Shown piece after piece: positions 41,965 to 62,558 of a stretch of DNA of 64,000 nucleotides. A model generated the notes under the pieces. The model saw only the letters and a list, made by a program, of their open reading frames with translations. It had not been told where the DNA came from and did no database searches. Origin of the DNA: Acidimicrobiia bacterium (GTDB lineage Bacteria > Actinomycetota > Acidimicrobiia > Spongiisociales > ZC4RG35). Both the position numbers and the translations under genes were made by a program. How positions within the stretch are numbered: position 1 is the stretch's first letter; each line of letters begins with the position of its first letter. The DNA lies in assembly GCA_015488325.1 (NCBI GenBank), contig WFOA01000123.1, positions 1,226 to 65,225 of the forward strand, read 5' to 3'.

Positions 41965-42044
41965 ACTAGGAGCATCCGGCCGACACGGATGGACGGCCGC
42001 CTGGGGTTGGCAGACTGGGGGTGTGTCTACCGCGGAGGATCGCC

Positions 42045-43421
42045 GTGCCCTACCGGACCATCATCGAACCGTTCCGGATCCACACCGTCGAACCGATCGA
42101 CTTCCCTGACGAGGACCGGCGTCGGGCGGCGCTCGAACGGGTCGGCTACAACGTGTTCGGCCTGCACGCCGACGAGGTGATCATCGACCTGCTCACCGAC
42201 TCGGGCACCGGGGCGATGTCGACCCGCCAGTGGGCGGGGATCATGCAGGGTGACGAGTCCTACGCCGGGAGCCGCTCCTTCTACCGCTTCCGGGACACCG
42301 TGGCCGAGATCACCGGCCTCACCGAGGTGATCCCCACCCATCAGGGGCGGGCTGCAGAACGGATCCTCTTCGCGGTGACGACGAACGCCGGCGACGTCGT
42401 CCCCAACAACACCCACTTCGACACCACCCGCGCCAACGTCGAGTACCAGGGGGCCGAAGCTCGGGACCTGGTGATCCCCGCCGGCCTCGACCCCGCCGCC
42501 GAGCATCCCTTCAAAGGCAACATGGACGTCGACGCCCTCGAAGCCACCATCGAGGAGGTCGGGCGCGACCGGGTGCCGCTGGTGATGGTGACGGTCACGA
42601 ACAACTCCGGGGGAGGCCAGCCCGTGTCGATGGCCAACCTCCGGGCCGTCCGGGAGGTCTGCGACCGTCACGGGATCCCCCTGTTCCTCGACGCCTGCCG
42701 GTTCGCCGAGAACGCCTGGTTCATCAAGCTCAGGGAGCCGGGCTACGCCGACAAGACCCCCATCGAGATCGCCCGGGAGATGTTCTCCCTGGTGGACGGA
42801 TGCACCATGTCGGCGAAGAAGGACGGGATGTCCAACATCGGCGGGTTCTTGGCGATGAACGATCCCACCCTGGCCCAGGAATGCCGGAACCTCCTCATCC
42901 TCACCGAAGGCTTCCCCACCTACGGGGGGCTGGCGGGCTACGACCTCGAAGCGGTGGCTCAGGGCTTGTGGGAGGCCCTGGAAGAGGAGTACCTGCGCTA
43001 CCGGATCCGCTCGACCGAGTACCTGGCGGAGAAGGTCGCCGCCGCCGGTGTCCCCATCGTCAAACCGCCGGGGGGCCACGCCGTGTACCTCGACGCCAAG
43101 GCGCTGCTCCCGCACATCCCCCCCTCCCAGTATCCGGCCCAGGCGCTCGCCTGCGCCCTCTACCTGGAAGGGGGGGTGCGCGGGGTGGAGATCGGCAGCG
43201 TCATGTTCGGCAAACCGCAGCCCGACGGTACCGAGATCCCGGCGCCGATGGAGCTGGTACGTCTCGCCGTGCCACGGCGGACCTACACCCAGAGCCACAT
43301 CGACTACGTGGGGGAGGTGATGATCGCCGTCGCCGAGAAGGCGGGAGACCTCCGGGGTCTACGGATGGTGAGTCAGCCCCCATGGCTTCGCCACTTCACC
43401 GCGACCTTCGAGCCTCTCTGA
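42045..43421 (+). CDS. tnaA: tryptophanase / tyrosine phenol-lyase (beta-eliminating lyase)
   Basis: GTG at 42045 lies 5 nt after GGAGGA. Reads VPYRTIIEPFRIHTVEPI ... SGTGAMSTRQW ... CTMSAKKDGMSNIGGFL (the PLP lysine). Confidence 0.8.
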   Translation: MPYRTIIEPFRIHTVEPIDFPDEDRRRAALERVGYNVFGLHADEVIIDLLTDSGTGAMSTRQWAGIMQGDESYAGSRSFYRFRDTVAEITGLTEVIPTHQGRAAERILFAVTTNAGDVVPNNTHFDTTRANVEYQGAEARDLVIPAGLDPAAEHPFKGNMDVDALEATIEEVGRDRVPLVMVTVTNNSGGGQPVSMANLRAVREVCDRHGIPLFLDACRFAENAWFIKLREPGYADKTPIEIAREMFSLVDGCTMSAKKDGMSNIGGFLAMNDPTLAQECRNLLILTEGFPTYGGLAGYDLEAVAQGLWEALEEEYLRYRIRSTEYLAEKVAAAGVPIVKPPGGHAVYLDAKALLPHIPPSQYPAQALACALYLEGGVRGVEIGSVMFGKPQPDGTEIPAPMELVRLAVPRRTYTQSHIDYVGEVMIAVAEKAGDLRGLRMVSQPPWLRHFTATFEPL

Positions 43422-46262: not shown

Positions 46263-46372
46263 CCTCTCGGGTCGGGTTCTCCCTCACAGACGCCGCACAC
46301 CCACCAGATTCGACGGCCTCCCCCAATCTTTCTCCGGTGGCCGGCCACGGGGCCTACGCTGCGGTATGGGAG

Positions 46373-46903
46373 GTGATCACCGTGGAACCGTCATCCGAGG
46401 TCTACCGGGCGATCCGTTCGCTCCGGGTCGTGAGGAACTACCTGCCCGAACCCCTGCGTGACGAAGACCGGCTCGCCATCCTGGAGGCGGCCCGCTGGAC
46501 CGGAAGCTCGAAGAACCGCCAAGACTGGGTGTTCGTCGTGGTCCGAGACCGGGAACGTCTCGACCGTCTCGCCGAATGCGGTGACTTCACCACTCCGCTG
46601 CGGCGGGCACCCGAGGCGATCGTCCCGGTCGGACTCCCCGGATCGTACGAATGGGACCTGGGCCGCGCGTCCCAGAACATCATGTTGGCGGCGGCGGCGC
46701 TGGGGGTCGGCTCCTGCCCGGTGACCATGCATCGGGAATCCTGCGCCCGCCAGGTGTTGGGGGTCCCGGACGACCACCGGAGCCGATACGCCATCGCCCT
46801 CGGCTACCCCGACCACGCGGCCGAACGCCGCGCCCGGGAACGGTCCCCCCTCCACGGCCGCAAACCCCTCGACGAGGTCGTCCGCTGGGAGACGTTCTCC
46901 TGA
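46373..46903 (+). CDS. nitroreductase-family protein
   Basis: GTG at 46373 follows GGGAGG. Reads VITVEPSSEVYRAIRSLRVVRNYLPEPL ... SQNIMLAAAALGVGSCPV. 176 aa. Confidence 0.7.
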   Translation: MITVEPSSEVYRAIRSLRVVRNYLPEPLRDEDRLAILEAARWTGSSKNRQDWVFVVVRDRERLDRLAECGDFTTPLRRAPEAIVPVGLPGSYEWDLGRASQNIMLAAAALGVGSCPVTMHRESCARQVLGVPDDHRSRYAIALGYPDHAAERRARERSPLHGRKPLDEVVRWETFS

Positions 46904-47393: not shown

Positions 47394-49208
47394 TCACGAC
47401 GGCAGGGTGAGACGGAACACGCTCCACGAACCGTCACGGAGGTAGACGAGGTCGCCGTCCATGAGGCGTGCGAGCTGTCTGCTCACGGTGAGCCCGAGAC
47501 CCACACTCGCCGGCTGGCCCATGATGTCGTGGGCCGTCCGGTAGGGCTCGAAGATGCGTTCGCGAAGCTCGGGAGGGATCCCCTCGCCGTCGTCGCGGAC
47601 CTCGATGATCGTCACGCCGTCGCCGGGACGCACCCGCACCTCGACCCGGGGCCCGCCGTACCGGCGGGCGTTGGTCGACAGGTTGCGGAGGATCTGGCGG
47701 AGACGGCGCGGGTCGGCGGTCACCGTCGCCGGATCGCCCGCCACCGTCACCTCGCCATCGGCGAAGACCGCGGCGAGGGCCCGTTCCAACTCGGGGCGGA
47801 TCTCGACCCGGGTGGGTGCCACGTTCACCTGGCCGATATCGGCCCGGGCGACCACGAGGAGGTCTTCGACGATGTGGGCGACCTCGGTCGCCTGGTCGGC
47901 GATGAGCCCGACGAACTCCTCCAGTTCGTCACGGGAGAAACGCCCGAGGTCGGACCGCAGCTCCTGGGCGAGGCCGACCACCGCCGTCAACGGCGTCCGC
48001 AGTTCGTGGGAGACGGCCGCCACGAATTCGTCTTTCGAACGGACCAGCTTCTCCAACGTCTCCTTGGCTCGCATCCGATCCCAAAACACCCCGACCATGC
48101 GGGCCGCCGTCGCCAACAACAGCAGATCCTGGCGGTCCCAGGTGCGGGCTCGGGACAGGTCGGAGAACCCGATGATCCCCGCCAGGTCCCCGCCGATGAA
48201 GATGGGGATCTTCACTTCGGAACGGATCCTGGTGGGAGCCTGTTCGTACCAGGCCCGTTCCTTCCCGTTCAGCTCGTCGATGGTGAAGGCGAACGCTCGG
48301 CCCTGCGCCACCTGTCGGTAGGCGGTGGGCAGACGCGACCAGGGGACTCTCCGCCAGTACTCCCAGTCGGCGACCGTCGCCACCAGACCCGGCGCGGCGA
48401 CGGTCACGTGGCTGCAGATGACGGGTCCCAGCTCAGGGTCGTCTTCGCAGGTGTTCACGAACGCGAAGGAGGCGCCGGTGGCCCGCCGGAGGGCTTCGAG
48501 GGCCTGGCGGAGCGAGTCTTCGCCGTGGCCCAGCAGCAGCATGCGCCCGGCTTCGGCCAAGGCGTGTTCCATCTCGATGCGACGGGCCATCGCCGCCATG
48601 CTGGTCGTACGGGCCTCGTCGAGCTCCTGGCGTTCCCAGAAGGTGGCGATGAGGCTGGCGACGGTGCCGAGGAGGTCGAGGTCGTCGTCGGACCACCGGT
48701 GCCCCGCTTCGGTCCGGGCGAATCCCAACACGCCCATCCAGCGTCCCCGCCGCCCGACGGGGAGCTTCACCACCGAGCGGGTGACCGTCTCCACCACGTC
48801 CCGGTAGAAGCACCGTTCGGGGCCCTCCAGTTCGTCGACGGTGAAGGCCACCGCCCGCCCCTCCTCCAGCCCCTGCCTGCTGTGGGGAAGGCGGCTCCAC
48901 GGAACGAAGGTGAAGATGTCTGCGACCTGGCTCGAAAGCTCCAACCCTGGGCGGCACCGAGCCGCCACGTTGGTGAAACCGAAGCCCCGCTCAGGGTCGT
49001 GGACGTTGCGGTCGAGGAACACGAAATCCGTGTCCGTCGCCTCCAACAGGACATCGAGGACCCGTTCGATCCCGTCGTCGCCTTCGTCGGCGAGCAGCGT
49101 GGACGCAGCCACGGCGACGGCGCGTTCGATCCGGACCGGACGTTCGACCGCCGGCGGAGGCGTCTCGCCTCGCCCGTCGGCCGCGAGGGTTTCGGACACT
49201 GGTTTCAT
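47394..49208 (-). CDS. cytoplasmic sensor histidine kinase with two GAF domains
   Basis: 604 aa with two GAF-like regions, HisKA (FVAAVSHELRTPLTAV) and HATPase (RLRQILRNLSTNARRYG ... GLGLTVSRQLA). No TM segment, and no response regulator adjacent. Confidence 0.8.
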   Translation of the reverse strand: MKPVSETLAADGRGETPPPAVERPVRIERAVAVAASTLLADEGDDGIERVLDVLLEATDTDFVFLDRNVHDPERGFGFTNVAARCRPGLELSSQVADIFTFVPWSRLPHSRQGLEEGRAVAFTVDELEGPERCFYRDVVETVTRSVVKLPVGRRGRWMGVLGFARTEAGHRWSDDDLDLLGTVASLIATFWERQELDEARTTSMAAMARRIEMEHALAEAGRMLLLGHGEDSLRQALEALRRATGASFAFVNTCEDDPELGPVICSHVTVAAPGLVATVADWEYWRRVPWSRLPTAYRQVAQGRAFAFTIDELNGKERAWYEQAPTRIRSEVKIPIFIGGDLAGIIGFSDLSRARTWDRQDLLLLATAARMVGVFWDRMRAKETLEKLVRSKDEFVAAVSHELRTPLTAVVGLAQELRSDLGRFSRDELEEFVGLIADQATEVAHIVEDLLVVARADIGQVNVAPTRVEIRPELERALAAVFADGEVTVAGDPATVTADPRRLRQILRNLSTNARRYGGPRVEVRVRPGDGVTIIEVRDDGEGIPPELRERIFEPYRTAHDIMGQPASVGLGLTVSRQLARLMDGDLVYLRDGSWSVFRLTLPS

Positions 49209-53136: not shown

Positions 53137-53367
53137 TCACGGGCGCAGGGCGGGGGCGACGTCGGTCTCGTAGTCGGCGTGGCGGCCCGTCGCCTTCTTC
53201 GAATACACCAGGTCCCCGTCGACGGTGACTTCGAACACCCCTCCCGAGGACGGGATGAGCCTGACCTCGAAGGTCTGGCCGAACTCTTCGAAGATCTCAC
53301 TGGCCATGCCCACGGCACGGTCGGTGTAGTTTCAGGTGCGGCAGAACTCGATGGTGACGGTACGCAT
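53137..53367 (-). CDS. selW: SelW/Rdx-family selenoprotein; the in-frame TGA at 53332..53334 is read as selenocysteine
   Basis: Minus-strand translation from ATG 53367 is MRTVTIEFCRT-U-NYTDRAVGMASEIFEEFGQTFEVRLIPSSGGVFEVTVDGDLVYSKKATGRHADYETDVAPALRP, 80 aa, with stop TGA at 53137..53139. It has the CxxU redox motif and the GGVFEV..G.L..SKK core that is diagnostic of SelW-like proteins. It is not in the ORF track because of the internal TGA. Confidence 0.7.
53304..53320 (-). promoter_or_regulatory. candidate bacterial SECIS hairpin downstream of the selW UGA
   Basis: RNA CCGUG-CCGUGGG-CAUGG (5-bp stem including one G-U, apical loop containing GU) begins 12 nt after the UGA. That spacing fits known bSECIS elements, which start about 11 nt downstream. 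Confidence 0.4.
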
Positions 53368-55372: not shown

Positions 55373-55563
55373 ACCGCGGTCCCCCGAAGCCACGTACAGG
55401 GAGACGTGACCGCGCCTTTACAGCCCGTTTACGTGCGTCCCGGAGAATGGGGGGTGACAGGAGACGAGGAAGTCGTTCCGACTTCGTCGCATCTTTGGAA
55501 CAAACCGACGCCGGGAGACGTTTCTCCCCATACGAATGCCCCTCCGGGGAAGGAGGCGACCAG

Positions 55564-55758
55564 ATGACCGAAGTTCTCAAGGGAAGAGCCATCAAGGGGG
55601 TGACTCGACCCAACAAACAGTTCAAAGAGGATCGTGTCTGCGCCAAGAAGGGCTGCAACACCAAACTGAGCCGGTACAACAAGCGGGAGTACTGCTACGC
55701 CCACGCTCCCGTCCGGTTCCCCCGGGTCAGGGGCAGGATCGTTCCTGAAGGCACCTGA
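55564..55758 (+). CDS. small zinc-ribbon hypothetical protein (64 aa)
   Basis: ATG 8 nt after GGAAGGAGG. Reads MTEVLKGRAIKGVTRPNKQFKEDRVCAKKGCNTKLSRYNKREYCYAH (CxxC ... CxxH). Followed by a hairpin at 55820..55847. Confidence 0.45.
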   Translation: MTEVLKGRAIKGVTRPNKQFKEDRVCAKKGCNTKLSRYNKREYCYAHAPVRFPRVRGRIVPEGT

Positions 55759-55819
55759 TCTCCTAGGCGCCGCGGTTCCGGTTCTCTCCCCCTCCCCCGA
55801 CACTGCGACGCCGAAGGAC

Positions 55820-55847
55820 GAGGCCCCGGTGATCCCGCCGGGGCCTC
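55820..55847 (+). terminator. GC-rich hairpin, candidate intrinsic terminator
   Basis: GAGGCCCCGG-tgatcccg-CCGGGGCCTC followed by GCTTCTGTTC. Sits between the small zinc-ribbon gene and yjjI. Confidence 0.35.
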
Positions 55848-55983
55848 GCTTCTGTTCGGCCGTCGCCCGGATCGACGTCCGCCCAGACAGCCCGAACCCG
55901 CTCGGCCCCTTCGATGGGGCCTTCCGGCCCTGGTGCCCCCGGGACGTTCATGGAACCCTCAGGCCAGCGACGGACGGAGGACC

Positions 55984-57534
55984 ATGCCCTCATTCGACGA
56001 CGTGACGCATGCGGTACGGGACATCGTCACCTCCCCTCGGCTCACCTACCGCCAGCGTCTCCACCAACTCGCCCTCGCCGCCGAAGATCTGCTGCCCTAC
56101 CCGGAGATCTCCGCCGACGCCCGCCGGGCCATCGACGAAGGCGTCGTCTGTGACCTCGCCGAAGGTCACGCCCCCTACCGCCCCCGATATGTCCTGCCCG
56201 ACTACGCCACCGCCCTCCGCCAAGGGTCCGACTATCTGGAGCTCGACCCTCCGCAGAGCCTGGAAGAGGCCGTCGACTTCCTCCAGATCCTCTACCACCA
56301 CATCCCGTCCATCACCGGCCTGCCCGTCTACTTCGGGGATCTGGACACGATCCTCGGGCCGTACCTCGACGACACCTGGACCGACGACCGCCTCGACCGC
56401 CTCTTCACGCGGTTCTGGCGTTACCTGGACCGCACCATCCCCGACGCCTTCGCCCACGCCAACATCGGCCCGGACGACACCCCGATCACCCGGTCGATCC
56501 TGCGGGTGGATCGCGCCCTGGCGCAGGTGGTACCCAACCTCACCTTGAAATGGGATCCGGTGGTGTCCGGAGACGGACTGTTGCGGGAAGCGGCCGTCGC
56601 CATCGCCGAAGTGAACAAACCGCACATCGCCAACGACCCGCTGATCCGCCGCGACTTCCCCGAGGGGTACGGGGTCGTGAGTTGCTACAACACCCTCCCC
56701 CTCGGCGGCGGCTCCCACACCCTCGTCCGTCTCAACCTGCACGCCAGCCTCGCCCACCACACCGGCTCGATCGAGCGTTACCTCACCCGCACGCTGCCCG
56801 ACCACGTCGAACTCACCTTCGAGGTGATGGAGGCCCGTATCCGTTTCCTGGTGGAAGAGGCCGCCTTCTACGAGCACTCGTTCCTCGTCGACGAAGGCCT
56901 CATCCATCCGGAGCGGTTCACCGCCATGTTCGGGATCTTCGGCGTGGCCGAACTGGTGGAAGGGTTGCTCCCCGGCTGCACCTACGGGCGCCACGACGAA
57001 GCCGCCGACCTGGCCCGGCAGGTGATCGACACGATCGCCGACATCGTCCGGTCACGGCCGGTCCCCTACTGCCGGAACGACCGCGCGCTCCTCCACGCCC
57101 AGTCGGGGATCGCCGACGACGTCGGCGTGACCGCCGGGGCGAGGGTGCGGATCGGAGCCGAACCCGAACTCGTCGACCACATCCTCACCGTGGCCCCCCA
57201 TCATCCCCGCTTCCCGGCGGGCATCAGCGACATCTTCGCCCTCGAACGGTCGGTCCGCGCCAACCCCCAGGCGATCGCCGACGTGACCAAAGGGGCCTTC
57301 GCCCGGGGGATGCGGGAGATCACCTTCAACGTCGAAGGCTCCGACCTGGTCCGCGTCACCGGATACATGGTCCGCCTCTCCGACGTCGAGAAGCTGCGCC
57401 GGGAGGCTTCACGGATCAACAGCACCGGACTCGGCGCCGACTCCATCGAGAACTGGCGGCTCCTCGATCGCGTCCCCAGGGTCATCGGAATGGAGACCGA
57501 CCCGCGGATGCGGTCGCTCCTCCGTTCCGGATGA
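55984..57534 (+). CDS. yjjI: YjjI-family glycyl-radical enzyme (DUF3029), substrate unknown
   Basis: ATG at 55984 after GGAGGA. 516 aa, the same length as E. coli YjjI. C-terminal glycyl-radical signature DLVRVTGYMVRLS (Gly codon 57361..57363) lies about 57 aa from the end. The stop overlaps the start of the activase gene (ATGA). Confidence 0.7.
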   Translation: MPSFDDVTHAVRDIVTSPRLTYRQRLHQLALAAEDLLPYPEISADARRAIDEGVVCDLAEGHAPYRPRYVLPDYATALRQGSDYLELDPPQSLEEAVDFLQILYHHIPSITGLPVYFGDLDTILGPYLDDTWTDDRLDRLFTRFWRYLDRTIPDAFAHANIGPDDTPITRSILRVDRALAQVVPNLTLKWDPVVSGDGLLREAAVAIAEVNKPHIANDPLIRRDFPEGYGVVSCYNTLPLGGGSHTLVRLNLHASLAHHTGSIERYLTRTLPDHVELTFEVMEARIRFLVEEAAFYEHSFLVDEGLIHPERFTAMFGIFGVAELVEGLLPGCTYGRHDEAADLARQVIDTIADIVRSRPVPYCRNDRALLHAQSGIADDVGVTAGARVRIGAEPELVDHILTVAPHHPRFPAGISDIFALERSVRANPQAIADVTKGAFARGMREITFNVEGSDLVRVTGYMVRLSDVEKLRREASRINSTGLGADSIENWRLLDRVPRVIGMETDPRMRSLLRSG

Positions 57535-58412
57535 GCCTCGCCGTCCGTCATCCCCTCGACCGCGACGGCGAGATCCTCGAAGTCGCCGGGGTGGCCCCGT
57601 CGAGTTTCGTCGACGGGCCAGGCAACCGCTACGTCCTGTTCCTCCAAGGCTGCAACTTCGACTGTCCCGCCTGCCACAACCCGACCACCATCGGGCGCTG
57701 TGACGGCTGCGGCGTCTGCATCGACGTGTGCGCCCTCGAAGCCCTCACCCTCCCCGTCACCGGCACGGTCCTCTTCCATCCTGACCGCTGCGACTCGTGC
57801 GGAGACTGCCTCCGGGTCTGTCCCACCGACGCCGACCCCACCATCCGACCGCTCCCCGTCGACGAGGTGGTGTCCGACATCGCCGTCCACGCCCCGTTCG
57901 TCTCCGGCGTCACCGTGAGCGGCGGCGAACCGACCCTGCAGCTCGACGGCCTGATCCGGCTGTTCAGCCGCCTCCGCGACGACCCCGGCCTCGCCCACCT
58001 CGAACGTCTGGTGGACACCAACGGCAGCCTCGACCGGGACGGCTGGGAACGGCTGCTGAAGGTGATCGACGGGGCGATGGTCGACCTCAAAGCCGCCTCC
58101 CCCGAGCGGCACCGTCGCCTCACCGGACACGACATCGAACCGGTCATCGAGTCGCTCCGGCTCCTCGCCGAACGGAACAAACTCACCGAGGTCCGCCTGC
58201 TCGTCATCGAAGGTGAAACCGACGACGAGACCGAGCTCCTCGCCTGGGCCGGGATCGTCCGGTCGGTAGACCCGTCGGTCCCGGTACGGCTGATGCCGTT
58301 CCGACGCCAGGGAACCCGACCGCTCGCCCGGCGATGGCATGACACGACACCCGAAGCCATCGCCCGGGCCCGGACCGTCCTCGCCGCCGCCGGACTGCGG
58401 AACGTCCGTTGA
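57531..58412 (+). CDS. yjjW: glycyl-radical enzyme activating protein (radical SAM, YjjW type with ferredoxin-like inserts)
   Basis: SFVDGPGNRYVLFLQGCNFDCPACHNP is the CX3CX2C radical-SAM site. Two extra Cys clusters (CDGCGVCIDVC, CDSCGDCLRVC) are typical of GRE activases. GGEPTL is the SAM-binding motif. Confidence 0.8.
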   Translation: MSLAVRHPLDRDGEILEVAGVAPSSFVDGPGNRYVLFLQGCNFDCPACHNPTTIGRCDGCGVCIDVCALEALTLPVTGTVLFHPDRCDSCGDCLRVCPTDADPTIRPLPVDEVVSDIAVHAPFVSGVTVSGGEPTLQLDGLIRLFSRLRDDPGLAHLERLVDTNGSLDRDGWERLLKVIDGAMVDLKAASPERHRRLTGHDIEPVIESLRLLAERNKLTEVRLLVIEGETDDETELLAWAGIVRSVDPSVPVRLMPFRRQGTRPLARRWHDTTPEAIARARTVLAAAGLRNVR

Positions 58413-58452
58413 CCGGCCTCGCAACCTTCCGGTGTCGATACGCTGAACGGAC

Positions 58453-60861
58453 GTGACCACCCCCGGGCTGCAAGCCTTCACCGAGTTCAGGGCATCCCTC
58501 GTCGAGGCGCCGGTCGGCGACGGAGGCGTCGACGTGTGTGAGGCCCTCACCTCCCTCCTCGACGCGGCCGTCGAAGAGCTCGCCTCCGACCTGGGTGGAG
58601 GTGCAGCGGTGGTCGCCGTCGGCGGATACGGCCGTCGGGAACAATGCCTGTGGTCGGACCTCGACGTCATGGTGCTGCACGCCGGGGACGACCCCGAGCC
58701 GCTGGTCCGCAGCGTCCTCTACCCCCTGTGGGACGCCCACCTGGCGGTCGGTCACGCGGTCCGCACCGTCGCCGAATGCCGCGCCGCCGCCGTCGACGAC
58801 TTCGAGACGCTCACGTCGCTGCTGTCGGCTCGGCTGGTCGCCGGCGACCAGGGCCTCTACGACGACCTGATCGCCACCCTCACCGATCTGGTCCGACACC
58901 GGCCCCTCACCCCCGACCTCGTCACCCGAGAACGTGAACGCAGGGCACGCGAGCCCTACCCGGTGATGGCGGCAGACCTGAAGGAGAGCCGAGGGGCCCT
59001 CCGCACCCACCAGGGGTTCTGGTGGGAGCGGCGGCGGGCCCAGCTCGTCGGGTTCGCCACCCACGACCCGTCGGTAGAGGAGACCGACGCCCGTCGCGTC
59101 CTCCTCCAGGCCCGCAACGCCCTCCACGCCGTGTCCGGACGGGCGATGGACCGCTACGTCGTCGACCTGCGGGAAGCGGCCGCCGCCTGGCTCAGAACCG
59201 ACGTCTACGAGCTGTCTGCCCGCCTGATGCATGCCCTCGAACGGGGTGACCGGCTGGCCGACCGCTGGTGGCCCGACCTCCACACCGAACACGACCCTCT
59301 GGTCGGGTTCGGACGGAGACTGTTCGGACGGGTCCGCAGTCGCTTCGGCCCGGACGCCGACGGCACCCCCGCCGACTCGGTCCTGGAGGTGGCGGTGAGG
59401 GCAGCCGGCCGCCGCTCGGGTGTCTCCTTACATCCCCGGGAAGAAGAGCTGATCCGCCATGCCGAACCGGCCACCTGGACGGCGGCCGACCGGGCCGCGT
59501 TCGTGAAGCTGCTCGCCGCCGGCGAACGCGGTCGGGCCGTCTTCGGTCTCCTCGAAGACCTGGGCTGGGTGGACCGCGAGCTGCCCGAGTGGGGACCGGT
59601 CGCCACCGCACCCCAGCTTGCGCCATTCCACGACCATCCCGTCGGAGCCCACCTGTGGCGGACCGCGGCCGAGATGCGGAACCTCATCGAAGACCACGGG
59701 CCGGTCGGTCAGGTCGCCGCCGAGCTCGGCGACACCGAAGAGTTGTTCCTCGCCGCGTTCTTCCACGACATCGGCAAGGCACGTGACGGCGACCATTCGG
59801 AGATCGGCGCCGAACTCACCTCCGGTTTCCTCCGCCGTCACGGGTTCGGAGCGGCGACCTCCGGTGTGGTGGTCGACGTCGTCCGTCACCACCTGCTGCT
59901 GTCCGAGACCGCCACCCGCCGCGACATCGACGACCCGGCCGTGATCGACGAAGTCGCCGCGGTCGTCGGTGATCTGCGTCGACTCCAGGTCCTCTATCTG
60001 GTCACCATCGCCGACCTCCGGGCCACCGGCACCACCATGTGGAACTCGTGGCGAGCGACGCTGCTGCGGCGCCTGTACGAGCGGGTCCGGGAAGCCCTCG
60101 AAGCCGGCGGTGCCGTCCCGGCGACCCCGGACGTGGACTCGGTCCTCGCCGTCTGCGACGCCCACCAGGACCGCCGGGCGGTCGAAGAGCACGTGGCGGC
60201 GATGCCTTCGGACTACCTGGCCACATCCAGCCCCACCGAGGTCCTCTGGCATCTCCAGGTCGCAGACACCCTCGACGGGCCGGCGGCGGTCGTCCCCGAC
60301 CCTCAGGATCCAGGACGGGTGCTGGTGGCGGGCCGTGACCGGGCCGGGTTCCTGGTGGCGGTGACCCGGGCGTTCACCTCCCACGGCGTGGCCGTCCTCG
60401 ACGCCCGTCTCCGCACCCGAGCCGACGGTGTCGCCCTCGACACCTTCCACGTCGTCGACGACCGGACCGGCGACCCGGTCCCGCCCGGGCGGTGGCCGAA
60501 GGTGGCAGCCGACCTGGTGGATGGACTCGAAGGGCGCCGCGACCTGGCGGTGGCGTCCCGTCGACGGACCGAGAGCTACCGCCCTCGACGTCCCATGGCA
60601 CGGGCCGCCGTATCCGTCCGGCGGGAAGGCAGATACACCATCGTCGAGGTCCGAGCTCCCGACCGGGTGGGTCTCCTGGCCGAGATCGTCGAAGCCCTCT
60701 ACCTGGAAGGCCTCGACATCCACCTCGCCCGGATCGACACGATGGGAGGCGAAGCCCGTGACGTGTTCTTCACCCGCCGGGTCGGCGGCATCCCCATATT
60801 GGTGGAGGAGGAGCTGGCGGCCCTCCGGCGAAGGCTGGAGGACCGCCTCGACTCCCTGTAG
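58453..60861 (+). CDS. glnD: [protein-PII] uridylyltransferase/uridylyl-removing enzyme
   Basis: 802 aa with a nucleotidyltransferase domain (VVAVGGYGRREQCLWSDLDVMVLH), an HD domain (HDIGKARDGDH ... HHLLLS) and two C-terminal ACT domains. Confidence 0.85.
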   Translation: MTTPGLQAFTEFRASLVEAPVGDGGVDVCEALTSLLDAAVEELASDLGGGAAVVAVGGYGRREQCLWSDLDVMVLHAGDDPEPLVRSVLYPLWDAHLAVGHAVRTVAECRAAAVDDFETLTSLLSARLVAGDQGLYDDLIATLTDLVRHRPLTPDLVTRERERRAREPYPVMAADLKESRGALRTHQGFWWERRRAQLVGFATHDPSVEETDARRVLLQARNALHAVSGRAMDRYVVDLREAAAAWLRTDVYELSARLMHALERGDRLADRWWPDLHTEHDPLVGFGRRLFGRVRSRFGPDADGTPADSVLEVAVRAAGRRSGVSLHPREEELIRHAEPATWTAADRAAFVKLLAAGERGRAVFGLLEDLGWVDRELPEWGPVATAPQLAPFHDHPVGAHLWRTAAEMRNLIEDHGPVGQVAAELGDTEELFLAAFFHDIGKARDGDHSEIGAELTSGFLRRHGFGAATSGVVVDVVRHHLLLSETATRRDIDDPAVIDEVAAVVGDLRRLQVLYLVTIADLRATGTTMWNSWRATLLRRLYERVREALEAGGAVPATPDVDSVLAVCDAHQDRRAVEEHVAAMPSDYLATSSPTEVLWHLQVADTLDGPAAVVPDPQDPGRVLVAGRDRAGFLVAVTRAFTSHGVAVLDARLRTRADGVALDTFHVVDDRTGDPVPPGRWPKVAADLVDGLEGRRDLAVASRRRTESYRPRRPMARAAVSVRREGRYTIVEVRAPDRVGLLAEIVEALYLEGLDIHLARIDTMGGEARDVFFTRRVGGIPILVEEELAALRRRLEDRLDSL

Positions 60862-60873
60862 GTACCGGTCGGT

Positions 60874-61212
60874 TCAGAGGGCGTCCCGGTCGCGCTCGCC
60901 GGTCCGGATCCTGATCACCGCGTCGACGTCGGTGATCCAGATCTTTCCGTCGCCGATCTGGCCGGTGACGGCGGCCGAACGAACCGCGTCGGCGACGGCA
61001 GCGGCGTCGTCGGCGTCCACCAACACCTCCAGCTTGGCTTTGGGCATGAACTCCACCTTGTATTCGGCGCCCCGGTACGTCTCCGAATGTCCGCCCTGGC
61101 GGCCGAATCCTTTCACCTCGGTGACGGTGATCCCTTTCACGCCGACCTTGCGCAACGCCTCTTTGATCTCGTCGACCTTGTGCGGCCTGACGACCGCGGT
61201 TACCAGCTTCAT
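60874..61212 (-). CDS. glnK: nitrogen regulatory protein P-II
   Basis: ATG at 61212 gives MKLVTAVVRPHKVDEIKEALRKVGVKGITVTEVKGFGRQGGHSETYRGAEYKVEFMPKAKLEVLV, the T-loop RGAEY. 112 aa. Downstream of amtB. Confidence 0.9.
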   Translation of the reverse strand: MKLVTAVVRPHKVDEIKEALRKVGVKGITVTEVKGFGRQGGHSETYRGAEYKVEFMPKAKLEVLVDADDAAAVADAVRSAAVTGQIGDGKIWITDVDAVIRIRTGERDRDAL

Positions 61213-61226
61213 GTGCTCCGCTCCTC

Positions 61227-62558
61227 TCAACCTGCGGACAGCGCCGACACGTCGGGACCGTACCCGGGGGATCCGTGCTCGGCGACGTCGAGCCCTTCGA
61301 TCTCCTCCTCCGGCGGGACCCGCAGCCCGATGGTCGCCTTGATCGCGTAGAACAGCGCCCCGGAGGTGACGGTGACGAACACGAAGACGGCCACCACCCC
61401 GATGATCTGAGATCCGAGCTGCGCCCAGCCACCCCCATAGAACAGACCGGTGTCGGTGGCCAACAGGCCGACCATCAACGTCCCGAAGGCTCCGCAGACA
61501 CCGTGGACCGAGACGGCCCCGACGGGGTCGTCGATCCCGCGGCGGTCGAAGAAGATCACCGAGTAGACGACGATGATGCCTGCCAGCGCCCCGATGACGA
61601 GCGCCCCCCAGTTGGAGACGTTCGCCGTCCCGGCGGTGATCCCCACGAGGCCGCCGAGCACCCCGTTGCCGGCCATCGCCACGTCGGGTACGCCGGTCTT
61701 CAACCAGATGGTGATGGTCGCCAGCACACCCCCGGCTGCGCCGGCGATGAGGGTGGTGACGGCGATCCTCGGCACCGCCGCGTCGGCGGCGAGCTGCGAA
61801 CCGGGGTTGAAGCCGAACCAGCCGATGAAGAGGATGAAGACACCGACGATGGCGAAGGGGATCGAATGACCCGGGATAGCCCGGGGTTTTCCGTCGGCGT
61901 CGTACTTCCCGATGCGGGGTCCGAGGACCAACGCCCCCATCAGAGCCGCCCATCCTCCGACACCGTGGACGATGGTGGAACCGGCGAAGTCGATCATCGG
62001 GGTGGAGAGCTGAGCCAGCCAGCCGCCGCCCCAGAGCCAGTGGACGACCACCGGATAGATGATGGCGGTGATGACGAAGCTGTAGACGAAGTAGCTCTTG
62101 AACCTGGTGCGTTCCGCCATCGCGCCGGAGACGATCGTCGCCGCGGTGGCGGCGAACGCCACCTGGAACAGGAAGAAGGTGGCGAGGGACAGATTCCCGA
62201 AGGTCCCTTCGGTGAAATGACCAGGGTCGAGGAACCACCCGTTCGTCCCGAAGAAGGCGTTCCCCGCCCCGAACGCGATGGCGAACCCGATCGCCCCGAA
62301 GGCGAGCACCCCCGCCGAGAAGTCCATCAGGTTCTTCATCATGATGTTCGCCACGTTCTTGGCACGGGTGAGCCCCGCCTCCACGAGGGCGAACCCCGCC
62401 TGCATCAGGATGACCAGGATCGCAGCGGTCACGATCCAGATGTTGTCGAGGGTCGCCTGCACCGACTCGGCGGTGATCTCCTGCGCCCAGGCGGGGCTGG
62501 CCGACACGAGGGTCAGCAGGGCGGTCGTCGCCGCGACGGACAGCACTCTTCGTCTCAT
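61227..62558 (-). CDS. amtB: ammonium transporter
   Basis: Signal peptide then QAGFALVEAGLTRAKNVANIMMKNLMDFS ..., the Amt/MEP family. 443 aa. Confidence 0.9.
   Translation of the reverse strand: MRRRVLSVAATTALLTLVSASPAWAQEITAESVQATLDNIWIVTAAILVILMQAGFALVEAGLTRAKNVANIMMKNLMDFSAGVLAFGAIGFAIAFGAGNAFFGTNGWFLDPGHFTEGTFGNLSLATFFLFQVAFAATAATIVSGAMAERTRFKSYFVYSFVITAIIYPVVVHWLWGGGWLAQLSTPMIDFAGSTIVHGVGGWAALMGALVLGPRIGKYDADGKPRAIPGHSIPFAIVGVFILFIGWFGFNPGSQLAADAAVPRIAVTTLIAGAAGGVLATITIWLKTGVPDVAMAGNGVLGGLVGITAGTANVSNWGALVIGALAGIIVVYSVIFFDRRGIDDPVGAVSVHGVCGAFGTLMVGLLATDTGLFYGGGWAQLGSQIIGVVAVFVFVTVTSGALFYAIKATIGLRVPPEEEIEGLDVAEHGSPGYGPDVSALSAG

What the first reader, a model, noticed from the sequence alone, without database searches (positions are those of the whole stretch)
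55984..58412. YjjI/YjjW glycyl-radical enzyme pair of unknown function in a high-GC actinobacterium
A 516-aa protein ends with the glycyl-radical fingerprint (FNVEGSDLVRVTGYMVRLS, Gly codon at 57361). It is translationally coupled (ATGA) to a radical-SAM activase with CNFDCPAC plus two ferredoxin-like Cys clusters. Length, motif position and gene order match the E. coli yjjI-yjjW pair, whose substrate and reaction are unknown. Glycyl-radical enzymes are oxygen-sensitive and are rare in aerobic Actinobacteria. Together with the selenoprotein, this points to an anaerobic or microaerobic lifestyle. The neighbours (a small zinc-ribbon protein upstream, glnD downstream) give no clue to the substrate.
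Basis: partly seen in the sequence, partly recalled or inferred. Interest (0 to 1): 0.65.

Follow-up and report, generated by a model that had tools for sequence, protein, structure and literature searches.

The report
YjjI/YjjW glycyl-radical pair in Acidimicrobiia
This is a genuine, intact copy of the YjjI glycyl-radical enzyme and its YjjW activating enzyme in an uncultured Acidimicrobiia bacterium. The family is already catalogued and its reaction is still unknown; the one new point is a conserved DNA palindrome in front of the gene that resembles a hypoxia-regulator binding site.

Summary
yjjI is at 55984..57534 (516 aa, Gly460 codon at 57361, motif RVTGYMVR). It overlaps yjjW (57531..58412, 293 aa) by ATGA. 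YjjW carries CX3CX2C and two ferredoxin-type Cys clusters.

Both proteins score above the curated NCBIfam cut-offs: TIGR04040 633.9 against 498.3, and TIGR04041 283.1 against 250.2. The Gly motif and a single invariant Cys (SCYN loop) are conserved in all 42 full-length family members examined. dN/dS is 0.12-0.18. The predicted fold is a glycyl-radical barrel closest to class III ribonucleotide reductase, but the NrdD features tested here are absent (family profile, zinc ribbon, second Cys, ATP-cone).

The organism is an Acidimicrobiia MAG. The gene belongs to a monophyletic Acidimicrobiia/Nitriliruptoraceae clade, so it is not a rarity in that lineage. Only yjjI-yjjW is conserved as a neighbourhood; glnD and the other neighbours are incidental.

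New here: a palindrome GGGNC-N4-GNCCC sits 40-98 nt upstream of yjjI in 15 of 28 actinobacterial loci (0.37 expected). This includes 6 of 10 hold-out loci. It resembles the mycobacterial DosR box.

The substrate remains unknown. The finding is a new member of a known, uncharacterised family, of moderate interest.

The parts
55819..55848 (+). Intrinsic-terminator-like hairpin (13-bp stem, then CTTCTGTTCG) after the upstream 64-aa ORF. It separates that ORF from yjjI.
   Evidence: terminator scan; the hairpin is present in the MFE and centroid folds.
55917..55930 (.). Palindrome GGGCCTTCCGGCCC (pattern GGGNC-N4-GNCCC), 67 nt upstream of the yjjI ATG. Candidate operator, DosR-box-like.
   Evidence: One of only 3 copies in the 64-kb window, against 12.6 expected from shuffles. 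The same pattern lies at -40..-98 in 15 of 28 actinobacterial yjjI loci, against 0.37 expected. This includes 6 of 10 hold-out metagenome loci. The N positions do not covary, so it is not an RNA hairpin.
55976..55981 (+). Shine-Dalgarno-like GGAGGA just upstream of the yjjI ATG.
   Evidence: Read directly from the sequence.
55984..57534 (+). yjjI, YjjI-family glycyl radical enzyme, 516 aa.
   Evidence: TIGR04040 633.9 bits against cut-off 498.3. PF11230 620.6 bits. The same gene is called on independent contigs. AF2 model pLDDT 83.9, GRE barrel. dN/dS 0.12-0.18.
56683..56685 (+). Codon of Cys234, the only invariant cysteine (motif VVSCYN). It sits at the tip of a predicted beta-hairpin (strands 229-232 and 236-239). 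Inferred thiyl-radical site.
   Evidence: Invariant in 15/15 sequences and 42/42 family members. Secondary structure is from the model.
57361..57363 (+). Codon of Gly460 in RVTGYMVR, at the tip of a predicted beta-hairpin (strands 455-458 and 461-464). Inferred glycyl-radical site.
   Evidence: The equivalent E. coli Gly465 was labelled by a radical-trapping probe in live cells (preprint 10.64898/2026.08.13.742689).
57531..58412 (+). yjjW, YjjW-family radical-SAM activase, 293 aa. Overlaps yjjI by ATGA.
   Evidence: TIGR04041 283.1 bits against cut-off 250.2. PF04055, Fer4_12 and Fer4_7 hits. A 4-nt overlap is conserved in 9 related loci, and 23-29-nt overlaps occur in all but one of the others.
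57651..57674 (+). CX3CX2C radical-SAM cluster motif (C41, C45, C48; CNFDCPAC).
   Evidence: Sequence. Invariant in 17 aligned activases.
57699..57821 (+). Ferredoxin-like insert with two CX2CX2CX3C motifs (C57-C67 and C87-C97) for auxiliary [4Fe-4S] clusters.
   Evidence: Fer4_7, Fer4 and Fer4_9 hits at residues 56-101. Present in most orthologues but deleted in two Acidimicrobiia activases, L011 and L086.

Best explanation
The locus is a functional two-gene glycyl-radical module.

Inferred mechanism, from established GRE chemistry:
- Under low oxygen, YjjW uses its CX3CX2C [4Fe-4S] cluster to cleave S-adenosylmethionine. Its two auxiliary ferredoxin-type clusters are presumed to feed it electrons.
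- The resulting 5'-deoxyadenosyl radical abstracts a hydrogen from Gly460 of YjjI, leaving a stable glycyl radical.
- During turnover the radical passes to Cys234 on the neighbouring finger loop. The thiyl radical then abstracts a hydrogen atom from the substrate in the centre of the beta/alpha barrel.

What kind of GRE it is:
- YjjI is a compact, very slowly evolving sister family of class III ribonucleotide reductase.
- It has one catalytic Cys, no zinc ribbon, no ATP-cone and no C-x-E motif. Its chemistry is therefore not that of PFL, NrdD or the known eliminases.

Substrate (inferred):
- The pair travels alone, with no transporter or pathway genes, in Actinomycetota, Gammaproteobacteria, Bacteroidota and Halanaerobiales-type Firmicutes.
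- The substrate is therefore most likely a ubiquitous intracellular metabolite rather than a niche nutrient.

Regulation (inferred):
- In the actinobacterial clade, transcription is probably controlled through a conserved palindrome GGGNC-N4-GNCCC about 70 nt upstream of the start codon.
- The best guess is a DosR/NarL-family hypoxia-responsive regulator. This parallels FNR-dependent anaerobic induction in E. coli.

Shown here: family membership, motif conservation, purifying selection, fold, lack of conserved neighbours, and enrichment of the palindrome. Inferred: radical transfer, the class of substrate and the identity of the regulator.
For: - Family HMMs score above curated cut-offs.
- The Gly motif R[VI][TS]G[YF][LM].[RK] and the SCYN Cys loop are conserved in all 42 full-length family members examined, including the most divergent 50%-identity representatives.
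- Cys234 is the only invariant Cys.
- The AF2 model (pLDDT 83.9, pTM 0.85) places Cys234 and Gly460 at the tips of two beta-hairpins.
- The best PDB matches are class III RNRs, followed by PflD, PFL and other GREs (TM 0.6-0.74, 12-16% identity).
- dN/dS is 0.12-0.18 for yjjI and 0.21-0.28 for yjjW, in the same range as the flanking glnD and M3 peptidase genes (0.11).
- The pair is adjacent and co-oriented in every locus, and the two genes overlap in all but one.
- No other neighbour is shared across clades.
- The family is tiny: 653 hits, many of them fragments, among 1.84 billion representatives. About 25 of those hits are full-length 50%-identity clusters.
- It is 52-53% identical between Acidimicrobiia and Enterobacteriaceae.
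- Palindrome: 15 of 28 loci against 0.37 expected, hold-out 6 of 10. The published DosR consensus is TTSGGGACTWWAGTCCCSAA (PMC2275270).
- E. coli and Yersinia yjjI are induced anaerobically, and the E. coli gene is FNR-activated (PMC3688515; PMC3792023).
- E. coli Gly465 is labelled by a radical probe in vivo.
Against: - No substrate, product or radical has been demonstrated for any YjjI. An August 2026 preprint still calls it uncharacterised.
- The palindrome pattern was chosen after looking at the first set of loci, although the hold-out set confirmed it.
- The window's own site matches only 12 of 20 positions of the Mtb DosR consensus.
- 13 of 28 loci lack an exact copy.
- No LuxR/NarL-type response regulator was found among the 30 window ORFs scanned against Pfam, 8 of which had no hit.
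- Two orthologous activases lack the ferredoxin insert, so its role is not essential.
Confidence: 0.7

Rival explanations
1. YjjI is a minimal class III ribonucleotide reductase (or another nucleotide-reducing enzyme) that supplies dNTPs under anoxia.
For: - The top 23 PDB fold matches are all NrdD structures.
- Pfam NRDD passes its gathering score for the Anoxybacter and Halanaerobiales YjjI proteins (39 and 34 bits against 26.2).
- A local profile match aligns YjjI 17-134 with E. coli NrdD 121-242.
- Scattered nucleic-acid or nucleoside genes lie nearby in some genomes: deoCABD divergent in E. coli, RNase H in three loci, a xanthine/uracil permease in L086.
Against: - The window protein has no NRDD hit even at E <= 10, and no NrdD NCBIfam hit at E <= 0.01.
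- There is no C-terminal Cys4 zinc ribbon and no ATP-cone.
- The NrdD second active-site Cys (E. coli C175) falls in a gap of YjjI in two independent alignments.
- Cys234 is the only invariant Cys, so no reducing Cys pair exists.
- E. coli keeps nrdDG as well.
- The nucleoside-related neighbours are not conserved.
Confidence: 0.06
2. The pair is a decaying or silent relic of horizontal transfer in an essentially aerobic actinobacterium, and does nothing there.
For: - The window also encodes aerobic-type functions: CcmF, a luciferase-like monooxygenase and acyl-CoA dehydrogenases.
- The family has a patchy taxonomic distribution: 354 of 185,579 species genomes.
- One Acidimicrobiia MAG (L048) carries a copy from a different clade.
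Against: - Both ORFs are intact and all catalytic motifs are retained.
- dN/dS is 0.12-0.28, in the range of the flanking glnD and peptidase genes.
- GC content equals that of the surroundings.
- The actinobacterial copies form one clade with Nitriliruptoraceae as the sister branch. That implies long vertical residence.
- A conserved upstream operator is maintained.
Confidence: 0.03
3. The upstream palindrome is real but is not a DosR-type hypoxia operator. It binds an unrelated regulator (for example one sensing the substrate), or it is a promoter-architecture element.
For: - The consensus GGG(A/C/T)C-YTYC-G(G/A)CCC-T-R-R differs from the Mtb DosR box in the central tetranucleotide and in the fourth half-site position.
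- The window site matches only 12 of 20 DosR positions.
- No DosR-like regulator gene was seen in the window.
- Of the other two copies in the window, one (46660-46673) lies inside the nitroreductase gene. The position of the other (373-386) was not checked against the gene calls.
Against: - The core GGGNC-N4-GNCCC with a 3' TAA flank has the architecture of the published DosR consensus.
- The site lies 40-98 nt from the start codon, which is compatible with an activator site.
- One relative (L085) has HSP20 and Usp genes next to yjjI, which are typical DosR-regulon content in mycobacteria. The regulon content is from my own knowledge.
- The enterobacterial orthologues are anaerobically induced.
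Confidence: 0.35
4. The protein is a misassigned member of a characterised GRE class (PFL, an HPAD-type decarboxylase, an X-succinate synthase, or a diol/choline/hydroxyproline eliminase).
For: All of these appear as lower-ranked fold matches.
Against: - PF02901 scores 12.6 bits against its 24.3 cut-off, and PF01228 gives no hit.
- No PDB sequence relative is found even with a family profile.
- The protein is 516 aa, against 750-870 aa for those classes (target lengths).
- It has neither a Cys-Cys dyad nor C-x-E. The loop reads S-C-Y-N.
Confidence: 0.01

Closest known systems
E. coli YjjI (b4380) / YjjW (b4379); NCBIfam TIGR04040 / TIGR04041; Pfam PF11230 (formerly DUF3029)
   Same: - Same length (516 aa) and 52-53% identity.
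- Same Gly motif (VTGYMVR; G465 in E. coli, G460 here) and same SCYN Cys loop.
- Same gene order, with overlapping genes.
- Activase of the same architecture: CX3CX2C plus two ferredoxin-type clusters.

   Different: - Host is a 69% GC Acidimicrobiia MAG.
- The overlap is 4 nt (ATGA), against 29 nt in E. coli.
- Neighbours are unrelated: glnD/glnB/amt here, deoCABD in E. coli.
- The candidate operator is a DosR-like palindrome rather than the FNR binding reported for E. coli.
[quoted passage not shown]
   Same: - Closest solved fold (Foldseek E = 2e-16, TM 0.6-0.74).
- A Cys finger loop opposes a C-terminal Gly loop.
- It is a self-contained enzyme-plus-activase gene pair without pathway neighbours.
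- Weak sequence homology around the N-terminal and central barrel strands.

   Different: - 12-16% identity.
- No zinc ribbon, no ATP-cone or specificity-site helices, and no second catalytic Cys.
- About 200 residues shorter.
- The activase carries a ferredoxin insert, which the E. coli NrdG gene is too short to hold (465 nt, about 154 aa).

Pyruvate formate-lyase PflB/PflA and the PFL-like GREs (PflD, TdcE, and the HypD, CutC and glycerol dehydratase group)
   Same: Same superfamily fold, and a Gly motif of the RVxGY type.
   Different: - No detectable Pfam PFL-like or Gly_radical domain.
- A single Cys instead of the Cys-Cys dyad.
- No C-x-E motif.
- Much smaller.
- Not embedded in catabolic or microcompartment operons.

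Mycobacterium tuberculosis DosR (DevR) operator, TTSGGGACTWWAGTCCCSAA
   Same: - Palindrome with a GGGNC-N4-GNCCC core and an A-rich 3' flank.
- Located in the promoter region of a gene expected to work only at low oxygen.

   Different: - The central tetranucleotide is YTYC rather than TWWA.
- The right half-site is G(G/A)CCC rather than GTCCC.
- The regulator is not identified and binding is not shown.

Membership tests
YjjI family glycine radical enzyme (TIGR04040 / PF11230) | Family HMM score above the curated cut-off over the full length | tested here: met
   TIGR04040 633.9 bits against 498.3, residues 11-499 on profile positions 3-497 of 497. PF11230 620.6 bits, profile positions 1-485 of 485.
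YjjI family glycine radical enzyme (TIGR04040 / PF11230) | Glycyl-radical fingerprint RVTGY(M/L)V(R/K) about 55 residues from the C-terminus | tested here: met
   Gly460 lies in RVTGYMVR. The Gly and its flanking Arg are invariant in 42/42 family members, and the neighbouring positions vary only within R[VI][TS]G[YF].
YjjI family glycine radical enzyme (TIGR04040 / PF11230) | Single invariant Cys on a finger loop (SCYN) | tested here: met
   Cys234 is the only invariant Cys. It lies between predicted strands 229-232 and 236-239.
YjjI family glycine radical enzyme (TIGR04040 / PF11230) | Adjacent, co-oriented YjjW-type activase gene | tested here: met
   ATGA overlap here. The pair is adjacent in every locus that extends past the end of yjjI (21 of the 22 tested; the exception, L017, ends inside yjjI).
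YjjI family glycine radical enzyme (TIGR04040 / PF11230) | A glycyl radical is actually formed on the protein | not testable with these tools
   The only evidence is indirect and comes from E. coli: probe labelling at Gly465 in live cells (preprint).
YjjW family GRE activase (TIGR04041, radical SAM) | Family HMM score above the cut-off, plus the CX3CX2C motif | tested here: met
   283.1 bits against 250.2. C41/C45/C48 are invariant in 17 orthologues.
YjjW family GRE activase (TIGR04041, radical SAM) | Ferredoxin-like insert with two CX2CX2CX3C motifs, and the GGEP SAM-binding motif | tested here: met
   Fer4_7 hit at residues 56-101. VSGGEPTLQ is present. The insert is missing in two related activases (L011, L086), so it is typical of the family rather than universal.
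Class III ribonucleotide reductase NrdD | NRDD family profile (PF13597 or the NrdD NCBIfam models) | tested here: not met
   No PF13597 hit for the window protein at E <= 10, and no NrdD NCBIfam hit at E <= 0.01. Some other YjjI proteins pass weakly.
Class III ribonucleotide reductase NrdD | C-terminal Cys4 zinc ribbon next to the Gly loop | tested here: not met
   There is no Cys after residue 364. The C-terminal tail is Cys-free in all aligned members. E. coli NrdD, by contrast, gives weak, sub-threshold zinc-ribbon hits at residues 643-676.
Class III ribonucleotide reductase NrdD | Second active-site Cys (E. coli C175 / T4 C79) and an N-terminal ATP-cone | tested here: not met
   C175 aligns to a gap in YjjI in both hhalign and hmmsearch (both alignments are low-confidence). 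No ATP-cone domain is present.
Class III ribonucleotide reductase NrdD | GRE barrel fold closest to NrdD | tested here: met
   The top 23 Foldseek PDB hits are NrdD, E = 2e-16 to 2e-13.
PFL-like GREs (PF02901 + PF01228) | PFL-like and Gly_radical Pfam domains; Cys-Cys dyad (PFL) or C-x-E motif (eliminases, decarboxylases) | tested here: not met
   PF02901 scores 12.6 bits against 24.3, and PF01228 gives no hit. The loop reads S-C234-Y-N.
DosR/DevR-type operator | 20-bp palindrome TTSGGGACTWWAGTCCCSAA in the promoter region, bound by a NarL-family regulator | tested here: inconclusive
   The core GGGNC-N4-GNCCC is present and strongly enriched. By my own count, matches to the full consensus are 12/20 in the window, 14/20 in L086 and 16/20 in L095. 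Binding and the regulator could not be tested.

The most novel reading that the evidence does not exclude
In Acidimicrobiia and Nitriliruptoria, yjjIW belongs to a DosR-like hypoxia or dormancy regulon. YjjI is an NrdD-derived, minimal single-Cys glycyl radical enzyme that carries out an undescribed radical transformation of a ubiquitous, possibly nucleotide-derived, intracellular metabolite during anoxic survival. The actinobacterial clade, with its recognisable operator, would then give a regulatory handle for finding the function of the long-orphan E. coli YjjI.
Probability: 0.15. Interest if true: 0.7.

Novelty: new member of a known kind. Interest (0 to 1): 0.35.

Why it matters
YjjI is still described as an uncharacterised putative glycyl radical enzyme in E. 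coli (August 2026 preprint). This locus does not solve its function, but it adds three useful constraints.

1. The family is unusually small and conserved. There are about 25 full-length 50%-identity clusters worldwide, and 52-53% identity across phyla. It always travels as a bare enzyme-activase pair. Both points argue for one conserved reaction on a common metabolite.

2. It is structurally a stripped-down relative of anaerobic ribonucleotide reductase and lacks that enzyme's reducing machinery.

3. A vertically inherited actinobacterial clade carries a conserved, DosR-like palindrome in the promoter region. This is a concrete, testable link to low-oxygen regulation and a way to define co-regulated genes.

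For the organism, the pair indicates a capacity for anoxic metabolism in an uncultured Acidimicrobiia lineage.

Tried and rejected
- **Riboswitch or known RNA upstream of yjjI.** Rfam at gathering thresholds found only two tRNAs in the window. A permissive scan of 55300-56100 gave only sub-threshold noise.
- **Sigma-70 promoter scan.** No hits.
- **Solved structure by sequence.** None was found, even with a family profile.
- **Conserved neighbours as a substrate clue.**
  - tblastn of nine window neighbours against 22 loci found them conserved next to yjjI only in the closest relative, L001 (one weak 64-aa-ORF match in L012 aside).
  - All-against-all ORF clustering gave only yjjI, yjjW and their shadow ORFs, plus clade-local neighbours.
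  - RNase H recurs in three loci, and a LysR regulator recurs in Vibrio and Shewanella. Neither is general.
- **glnD/glnB/amt linkage (the nitrogen idea from PMC3228777).** It is present only in the window's immediate relatives and was rejected as a functional link.
- **Known operator consensus scans.** Rex and FNR gave nothing upstream of yjjI. CRP gave one 2-mismatch hit (L016) and GlnR one 1-mismatch hit (the window), neither recurrent.
- **RNA-hairpin reading of the palindrome.** Rejected because 6 of 14 sites break the fourth base pair.
- **DosR-type regulator gene in the window.** None was found among the ORFs tested.
- **Literature.** I found no functional study of YjjI, YjjW or DUF3029, and nothing on glycyl radical enzymes in Acidimicrobiia. 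The RNA-folding transposon screen hit in yjjW/yjjI was not validated.


Full report
**1. Observation**

- An ATG at 55984, preceded by GGAGGA, opens a 516-codon frame that ends with TGA at 57532-57534.
- Codon 460 (GGA, 57361-57363) is the Gly of ...FNVEGSDLVRVTGYMVRLS...
- The next gene starts with the ATG at 57531-57533, so the two genes overlap as ATGA. It runs to 58412 (293 aa).
- Its product has CNFDCPAC (C41/C45/C48) and two CX2CX2CX3C motifs (C57-C67, C87-C97).
- Independent gene calls on four public contigs give the same two genes. One of those contigs encodes the identical protein and the other three a 98%-identical one.

**2. Identity**

- NCBIfam places protein 1 in TIGR04040, 'YjjI family glycine radical enzyme' (633.9 bits, cut-off 498.3). 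It is the only family hit.
- NCBIfam places protein 2 in TIGR04041, 'YjjW family glycine radical enzyme activase' (283.1 bits, cut-off 250.2). Every other activase model falls far below its cut-off.
- Pfam gives PF11230 YjjI-like (620.6 bits) for protein 1, and Radical_SAM, Fer4_12 and Fer4_7 for protein 2.
- E. coli K-12 YjjI is also 516 aa and YjjW is 287 aa, in the same order and overlapping. RefSeq still labels YjjI 'DUF3029 domain-containing protein'.

Neither is met. The Gly motif R[VI][TS]G[YF][LM].[RK] and a Cys-loop motif SC[YF]N are present in all 42 full-length members examined, including the most divergent 50%-identity representatives.

**3. Organism and distribution**

- The closest proteins are 98% identical (P0001; NCBI, JGI and ENA contigs up to 151 kb) and then 84-58% identical. 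About 90 clusters fall in that range. Those that carry a name are from Acidimicrobiia MAGs.
- Among 185,579 species-representative genomes, 354 encode a relative. The best 80 include 14 Acidimicrobiia or related actinobacterial MAGs and 2 Nitriliruptoraceae. The rest are mostly Enterobacteriaceae, with two Marinifilaceae.
- A further search shows large Vibrionaceae, Shewanella, Psychromonas and Moritella groups.
- In a neighbour-joining tree the window protein sits in a monophyletic Acidimicrobiia clade, with Nitriliruptoraceae as sister. One Acidimicrobiia MAG (L048) carries a copy from another clade.
- GC content does not differ from the surroundings.
- dN/dS is 0.12-0.18 for yjjI and 0.21-0.28 for yjjW, in the same range as the flanking glnD and M3 peptidase genes.

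The pair is therefore long-resident and under purifying selection. It is not a rarity within this lineage.

The family as a whole is very small. A profile search of 1.84 billion 50%-identity representatives found 653 hits, most of them fragments, and only about 25 full-length clusters. Identity between Acidimicrobiia and Enterobacteriaceae is still 52-53%.

**4. Structure and relation to known GREs**

- No PDB entry is detectable by sequence, even with a family profile.
- An AlphaFold2 model built from a 15-sequence alignment is confident (pLDDT 83.9, pTM 0.85).
- The model shows alternating strands and helices. Two beta-hairpins have Cys234 (strands 229-232 and 236-239) and Gly460 (strands 455-458 and 461-464) at their tips.
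- Foldseek against the PDB gives class III ribonucleotide reductases as the top 23 hits (E = 2e-16 to 2e-13, TM 0.6-0.74, 12-16% identity). PflD, PFL, alkyl- and benzylsuccinate synthases, HypD, propanediol and glycerol dehydratases and arylacetate decarboxylase follow.
- At sequence level the link to NrdD is faint but real. Pfam NRDD passes its gathering score for the Anoxybacter and Halanaerobiales YjjI proteins, but not for the window protein. A YjjI profile aligns residues 17-134 to E. coli NrdD 121-242.

The NrdD features tested here are missing:

- There is no ATP-cone.
- There is no C-terminal Cys4 zinc ribbon. The tail after the Gly loop contains no Cys.
- The second active-site Cys (E. 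coli C175) falls in a gap of YjjI in both alignments.
- Cys234 is the only invariant cysteine.

The PFL Cys-Cys dyad and the C-x-E motif of eliminases and decarboxylases are also absent. The loop reads S-C-Y-N. YjjI is therefore a separate, compact branch of the superfamily. It works like a GRE but is not a member of any characterised class.

**5. Activase**

- The CX3CX2C motif is invariant in 17 aligned orthologues, and the GGE core of the GGEP(T) SAM-binding motif is also invariant.
- The ferredoxin-like insert is present in the window and in most relatives. It is cleanly deleted in two Acidimicrobiia activases (L011, L086).
- The 4-nt ATGA/GTGA overlap is conserved in the window's sub-clade (10 loci). 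All but one of the other loci overlap by 23-29 nt, as in E. coli. This is consistent with translational coupling.

**6. Neighbourhood**

- Upstream lies a 64-aa Cys/His-containing ORF (55564..55758) with no family hit. It is followed by a strong terminator-like hairpin at 55819-55848.
- Downstream, after a 40-nt gap without a predicted terminator, lies glnD (best hits are all [protein-PII] uridylyltransferase, below the equivalog cut-offs). Convergent P-II and ammonium transporter genes follow.
- These neighbours are shared only with the 98% and 84% relatives.
- Other Acidimicrobiia have unrelated contexts: PFOR, HSP20, Usp, CoA-transferase and a Na/H exchanger in one; a xanthine/uracil permease in another; HypC and DUF6390 in a third; malic enzyme and an RNA methyltransferase in a fourth.
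- Vibrio, Shewanella and Anoxybacter contexts differ again.
- All-against-all clustering of flanking ORFs from 21 loci recovered only yjjI, yjjW and their shadow frames as universally shared.

The positive inference I draw is as follows. A GRE-activase pair that always travels alone, as NrdDG and PflBA do, probably acts on a common intracellular metabolite. The GRE eliminases, by contrast, sit in catabolic clusters.

**7. New observation: a conserved palindrome upstream of yjjI**

I scanned the upstream regions for known actinobacterial operators. This drew attention to sequences of the form GGGNC-N4-GNCCC.

- In the window the pattern occurs three times in 64 kb, against 12.6 expected from dinucleotide shuffles. 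One copy (GGGCCTTCCGGCCC, 55917-55930) lies 67 nt before the yjjI ATG.
- In the first set of actinobacterial loci, 10 of 24 occurrences in 268 kb lay 46-98 nt upstream of yjjI.
- Because the pattern was chosen after looking at that set, I fetched a second, independent set from metagenome contigs. Six of ten new loci carry it at -71 to -92.
- Overall, 15 of 28 loci have an exact copy in the zone -115..-35. First-order Markov simulations of the local sequence predict 0.37.
- The degenerate fourth position does not covary. Six of 14 sites would break the pair. The element is therefore a DNA site, not an RNA hairpin.
- The extended consensus is GGG(A/C/T)C-YTYC-G(G/A)CCC-T-R-R.
- The core and the A-rich 3' flank resemble the published Mycobacterium tuberculosis DosR operator, 5'-TTSGGGACTWWAGTCCCSAA-3' (PMC2275270). 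By my own count, individual sites match 12 positions of 20 (window) to 16 of 20 (L095).

I could not identify the regulator, and no LuxR/NarL-type response regulator was found among the window ORFs tested.

The DosR-type reading fits three observations. E. coli yjjI is FNR-activated (PMC3688515). Yersinia yjjI is induced anaerobically (PMC3792023). One relative has HSP20 and Usp genes next to yjjI. It remains an inference.

**8. What is known**

[quoted passage not shown] It reports probe labelling at E. coli Gly465 in live cells, which is indirect evidence for the radical. A 2011 biclustering paper proposed a role in nitrogen metabolism from co-expression with narG (PMC3228777). I found no biochemical study.

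**9. Lifestyle claim**

- The selenoprotein is a SelW/SelT/SelH-type protein with an in-frame TGA in a C-R-T-U motif (about 53137..53367 on the minus strand; TIGR02174 57.9 bits against 34.2). From general knowledge, this family is not an anaerobe marker.
- The window also encodes CcmF, a luciferase-like monooxygenase, acyl-CoA dehydrogenases, tryptophanase and purine biosynthesis genes.
- A facultative or microaerobic lifestyle with an anoxic response is the reasonable reading. Strict anaerobiosis is not indicated.

**10. Verdict**

The locus is a new member of a known, catalogued and functionally uncharacterised family. NCBI already names homologues in Acidimicrobiia.

It does not reveal the substrate. 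It does add the following:

- It excludes the tested features of the NrdD, PFL and eliminase classes.
- It shows that the module stands alone and is strongly conserved.
- It identifies a candidate low-oxygen operator specific to the actinobacterial clade.

Interest is moderate (0.35). The open question is real, but this window makes it only slightly more testable.

Noticed in passing
window 53137..53367 (-): SelW/SelT/SelH-family selenoprotein gene with an in-frame TGA in the motif C-R-T-U (MRTVTIEFCRT*NY...). Gene callers truncate it to 56 aa. With U replaced by C it scores 57.9 bits on TIGR02174 (cut-off 34.2). I did not look for a SECIS element.
   Followed up: partly
window 55564..55758 (+), with a terminator-like hairpin at 55819..55848: A 64-aa ORF (…RVCAKKGCNTKLSRYNKREYCYAHAP…, CX4C-X12-CX2H) with no Pfam or NCBIfam hit. 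It is called as a gene on four independent contigs and is followed by a 13-bp-stem terminator. It is not linked to yjjI in other Acidimicrobiia. Its family and function were not investigated.
   Followed up: partly
window 58413..58452 and 58453..60861 (+); 60874..61212 (-); 61227..62558 (-): glnD follows yjjW after a 40-nt gap with no predicted terminator, so it may be co-transcribed with yjjIW. It lies convergent to P-II and amt; from memory, actinobacteria usually have an amtB-glnK-glnD operon in one orientation. The arrangement is shared only with the 98% and 84% relatives.
   Followed up: partly
L011:9505-10236 and L086:5108-5941 (YjjW orthologues): Two Acidimicrobiia YjjW activases lack the whole ferredoxin-like two-cluster insert (about 40-45 residues deleted) but keep CX3CX2C. 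The auxiliary clusters are therefore dispensable in some lineages.
   Followed up: no
window 46334..46900 (+) and 47394..49208 (-): A nitroreductase-family gene lies next to an orphan GAF-GAF-HisKA-HATPase sensor kinase, about 7 kb upstream of yjjI. The domain layout recalls hypoxia, NO or CO sensor kinases, but the dimerisation domain is HisKA (PF00512) and no response regulator is adjacent. One of the three GGGNC-N4-GNCCC copies in the window (46660-46673) lies inside the nitroreductase gene.
   Followed up: partly
L008:7900-8000, L009/L010:7840-7930 and L099:1090-1160 (upstream of yjjI): Short tandem repeats lie directly upstream of yjjI in several Acidimicrobiia loci: GGGCAAC x4 in L008, CCTGTTGA/CCTGGTGA x6-7 in L009/L010, and GGGCGAC x5 in L099. 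Their significance is unknown.
   Followed up: no
L032:10864-11316, L079:10853-11467 and L048:12553-13173 (all minus strand): An RNase H gene lies 0.5-3 kb downstream of yjjW in two Marinifilaceae genomes and in the one Acidimicrobiia MAG whose yjjI belongs to a different clade. This may reflect co-transfer of a segment or may be coincidence.
   Followed up: partly
window 42021..43421 (+): A tryptophanase-family gene (NF009709 688 bits, cut-off 285).
   Followed up: no
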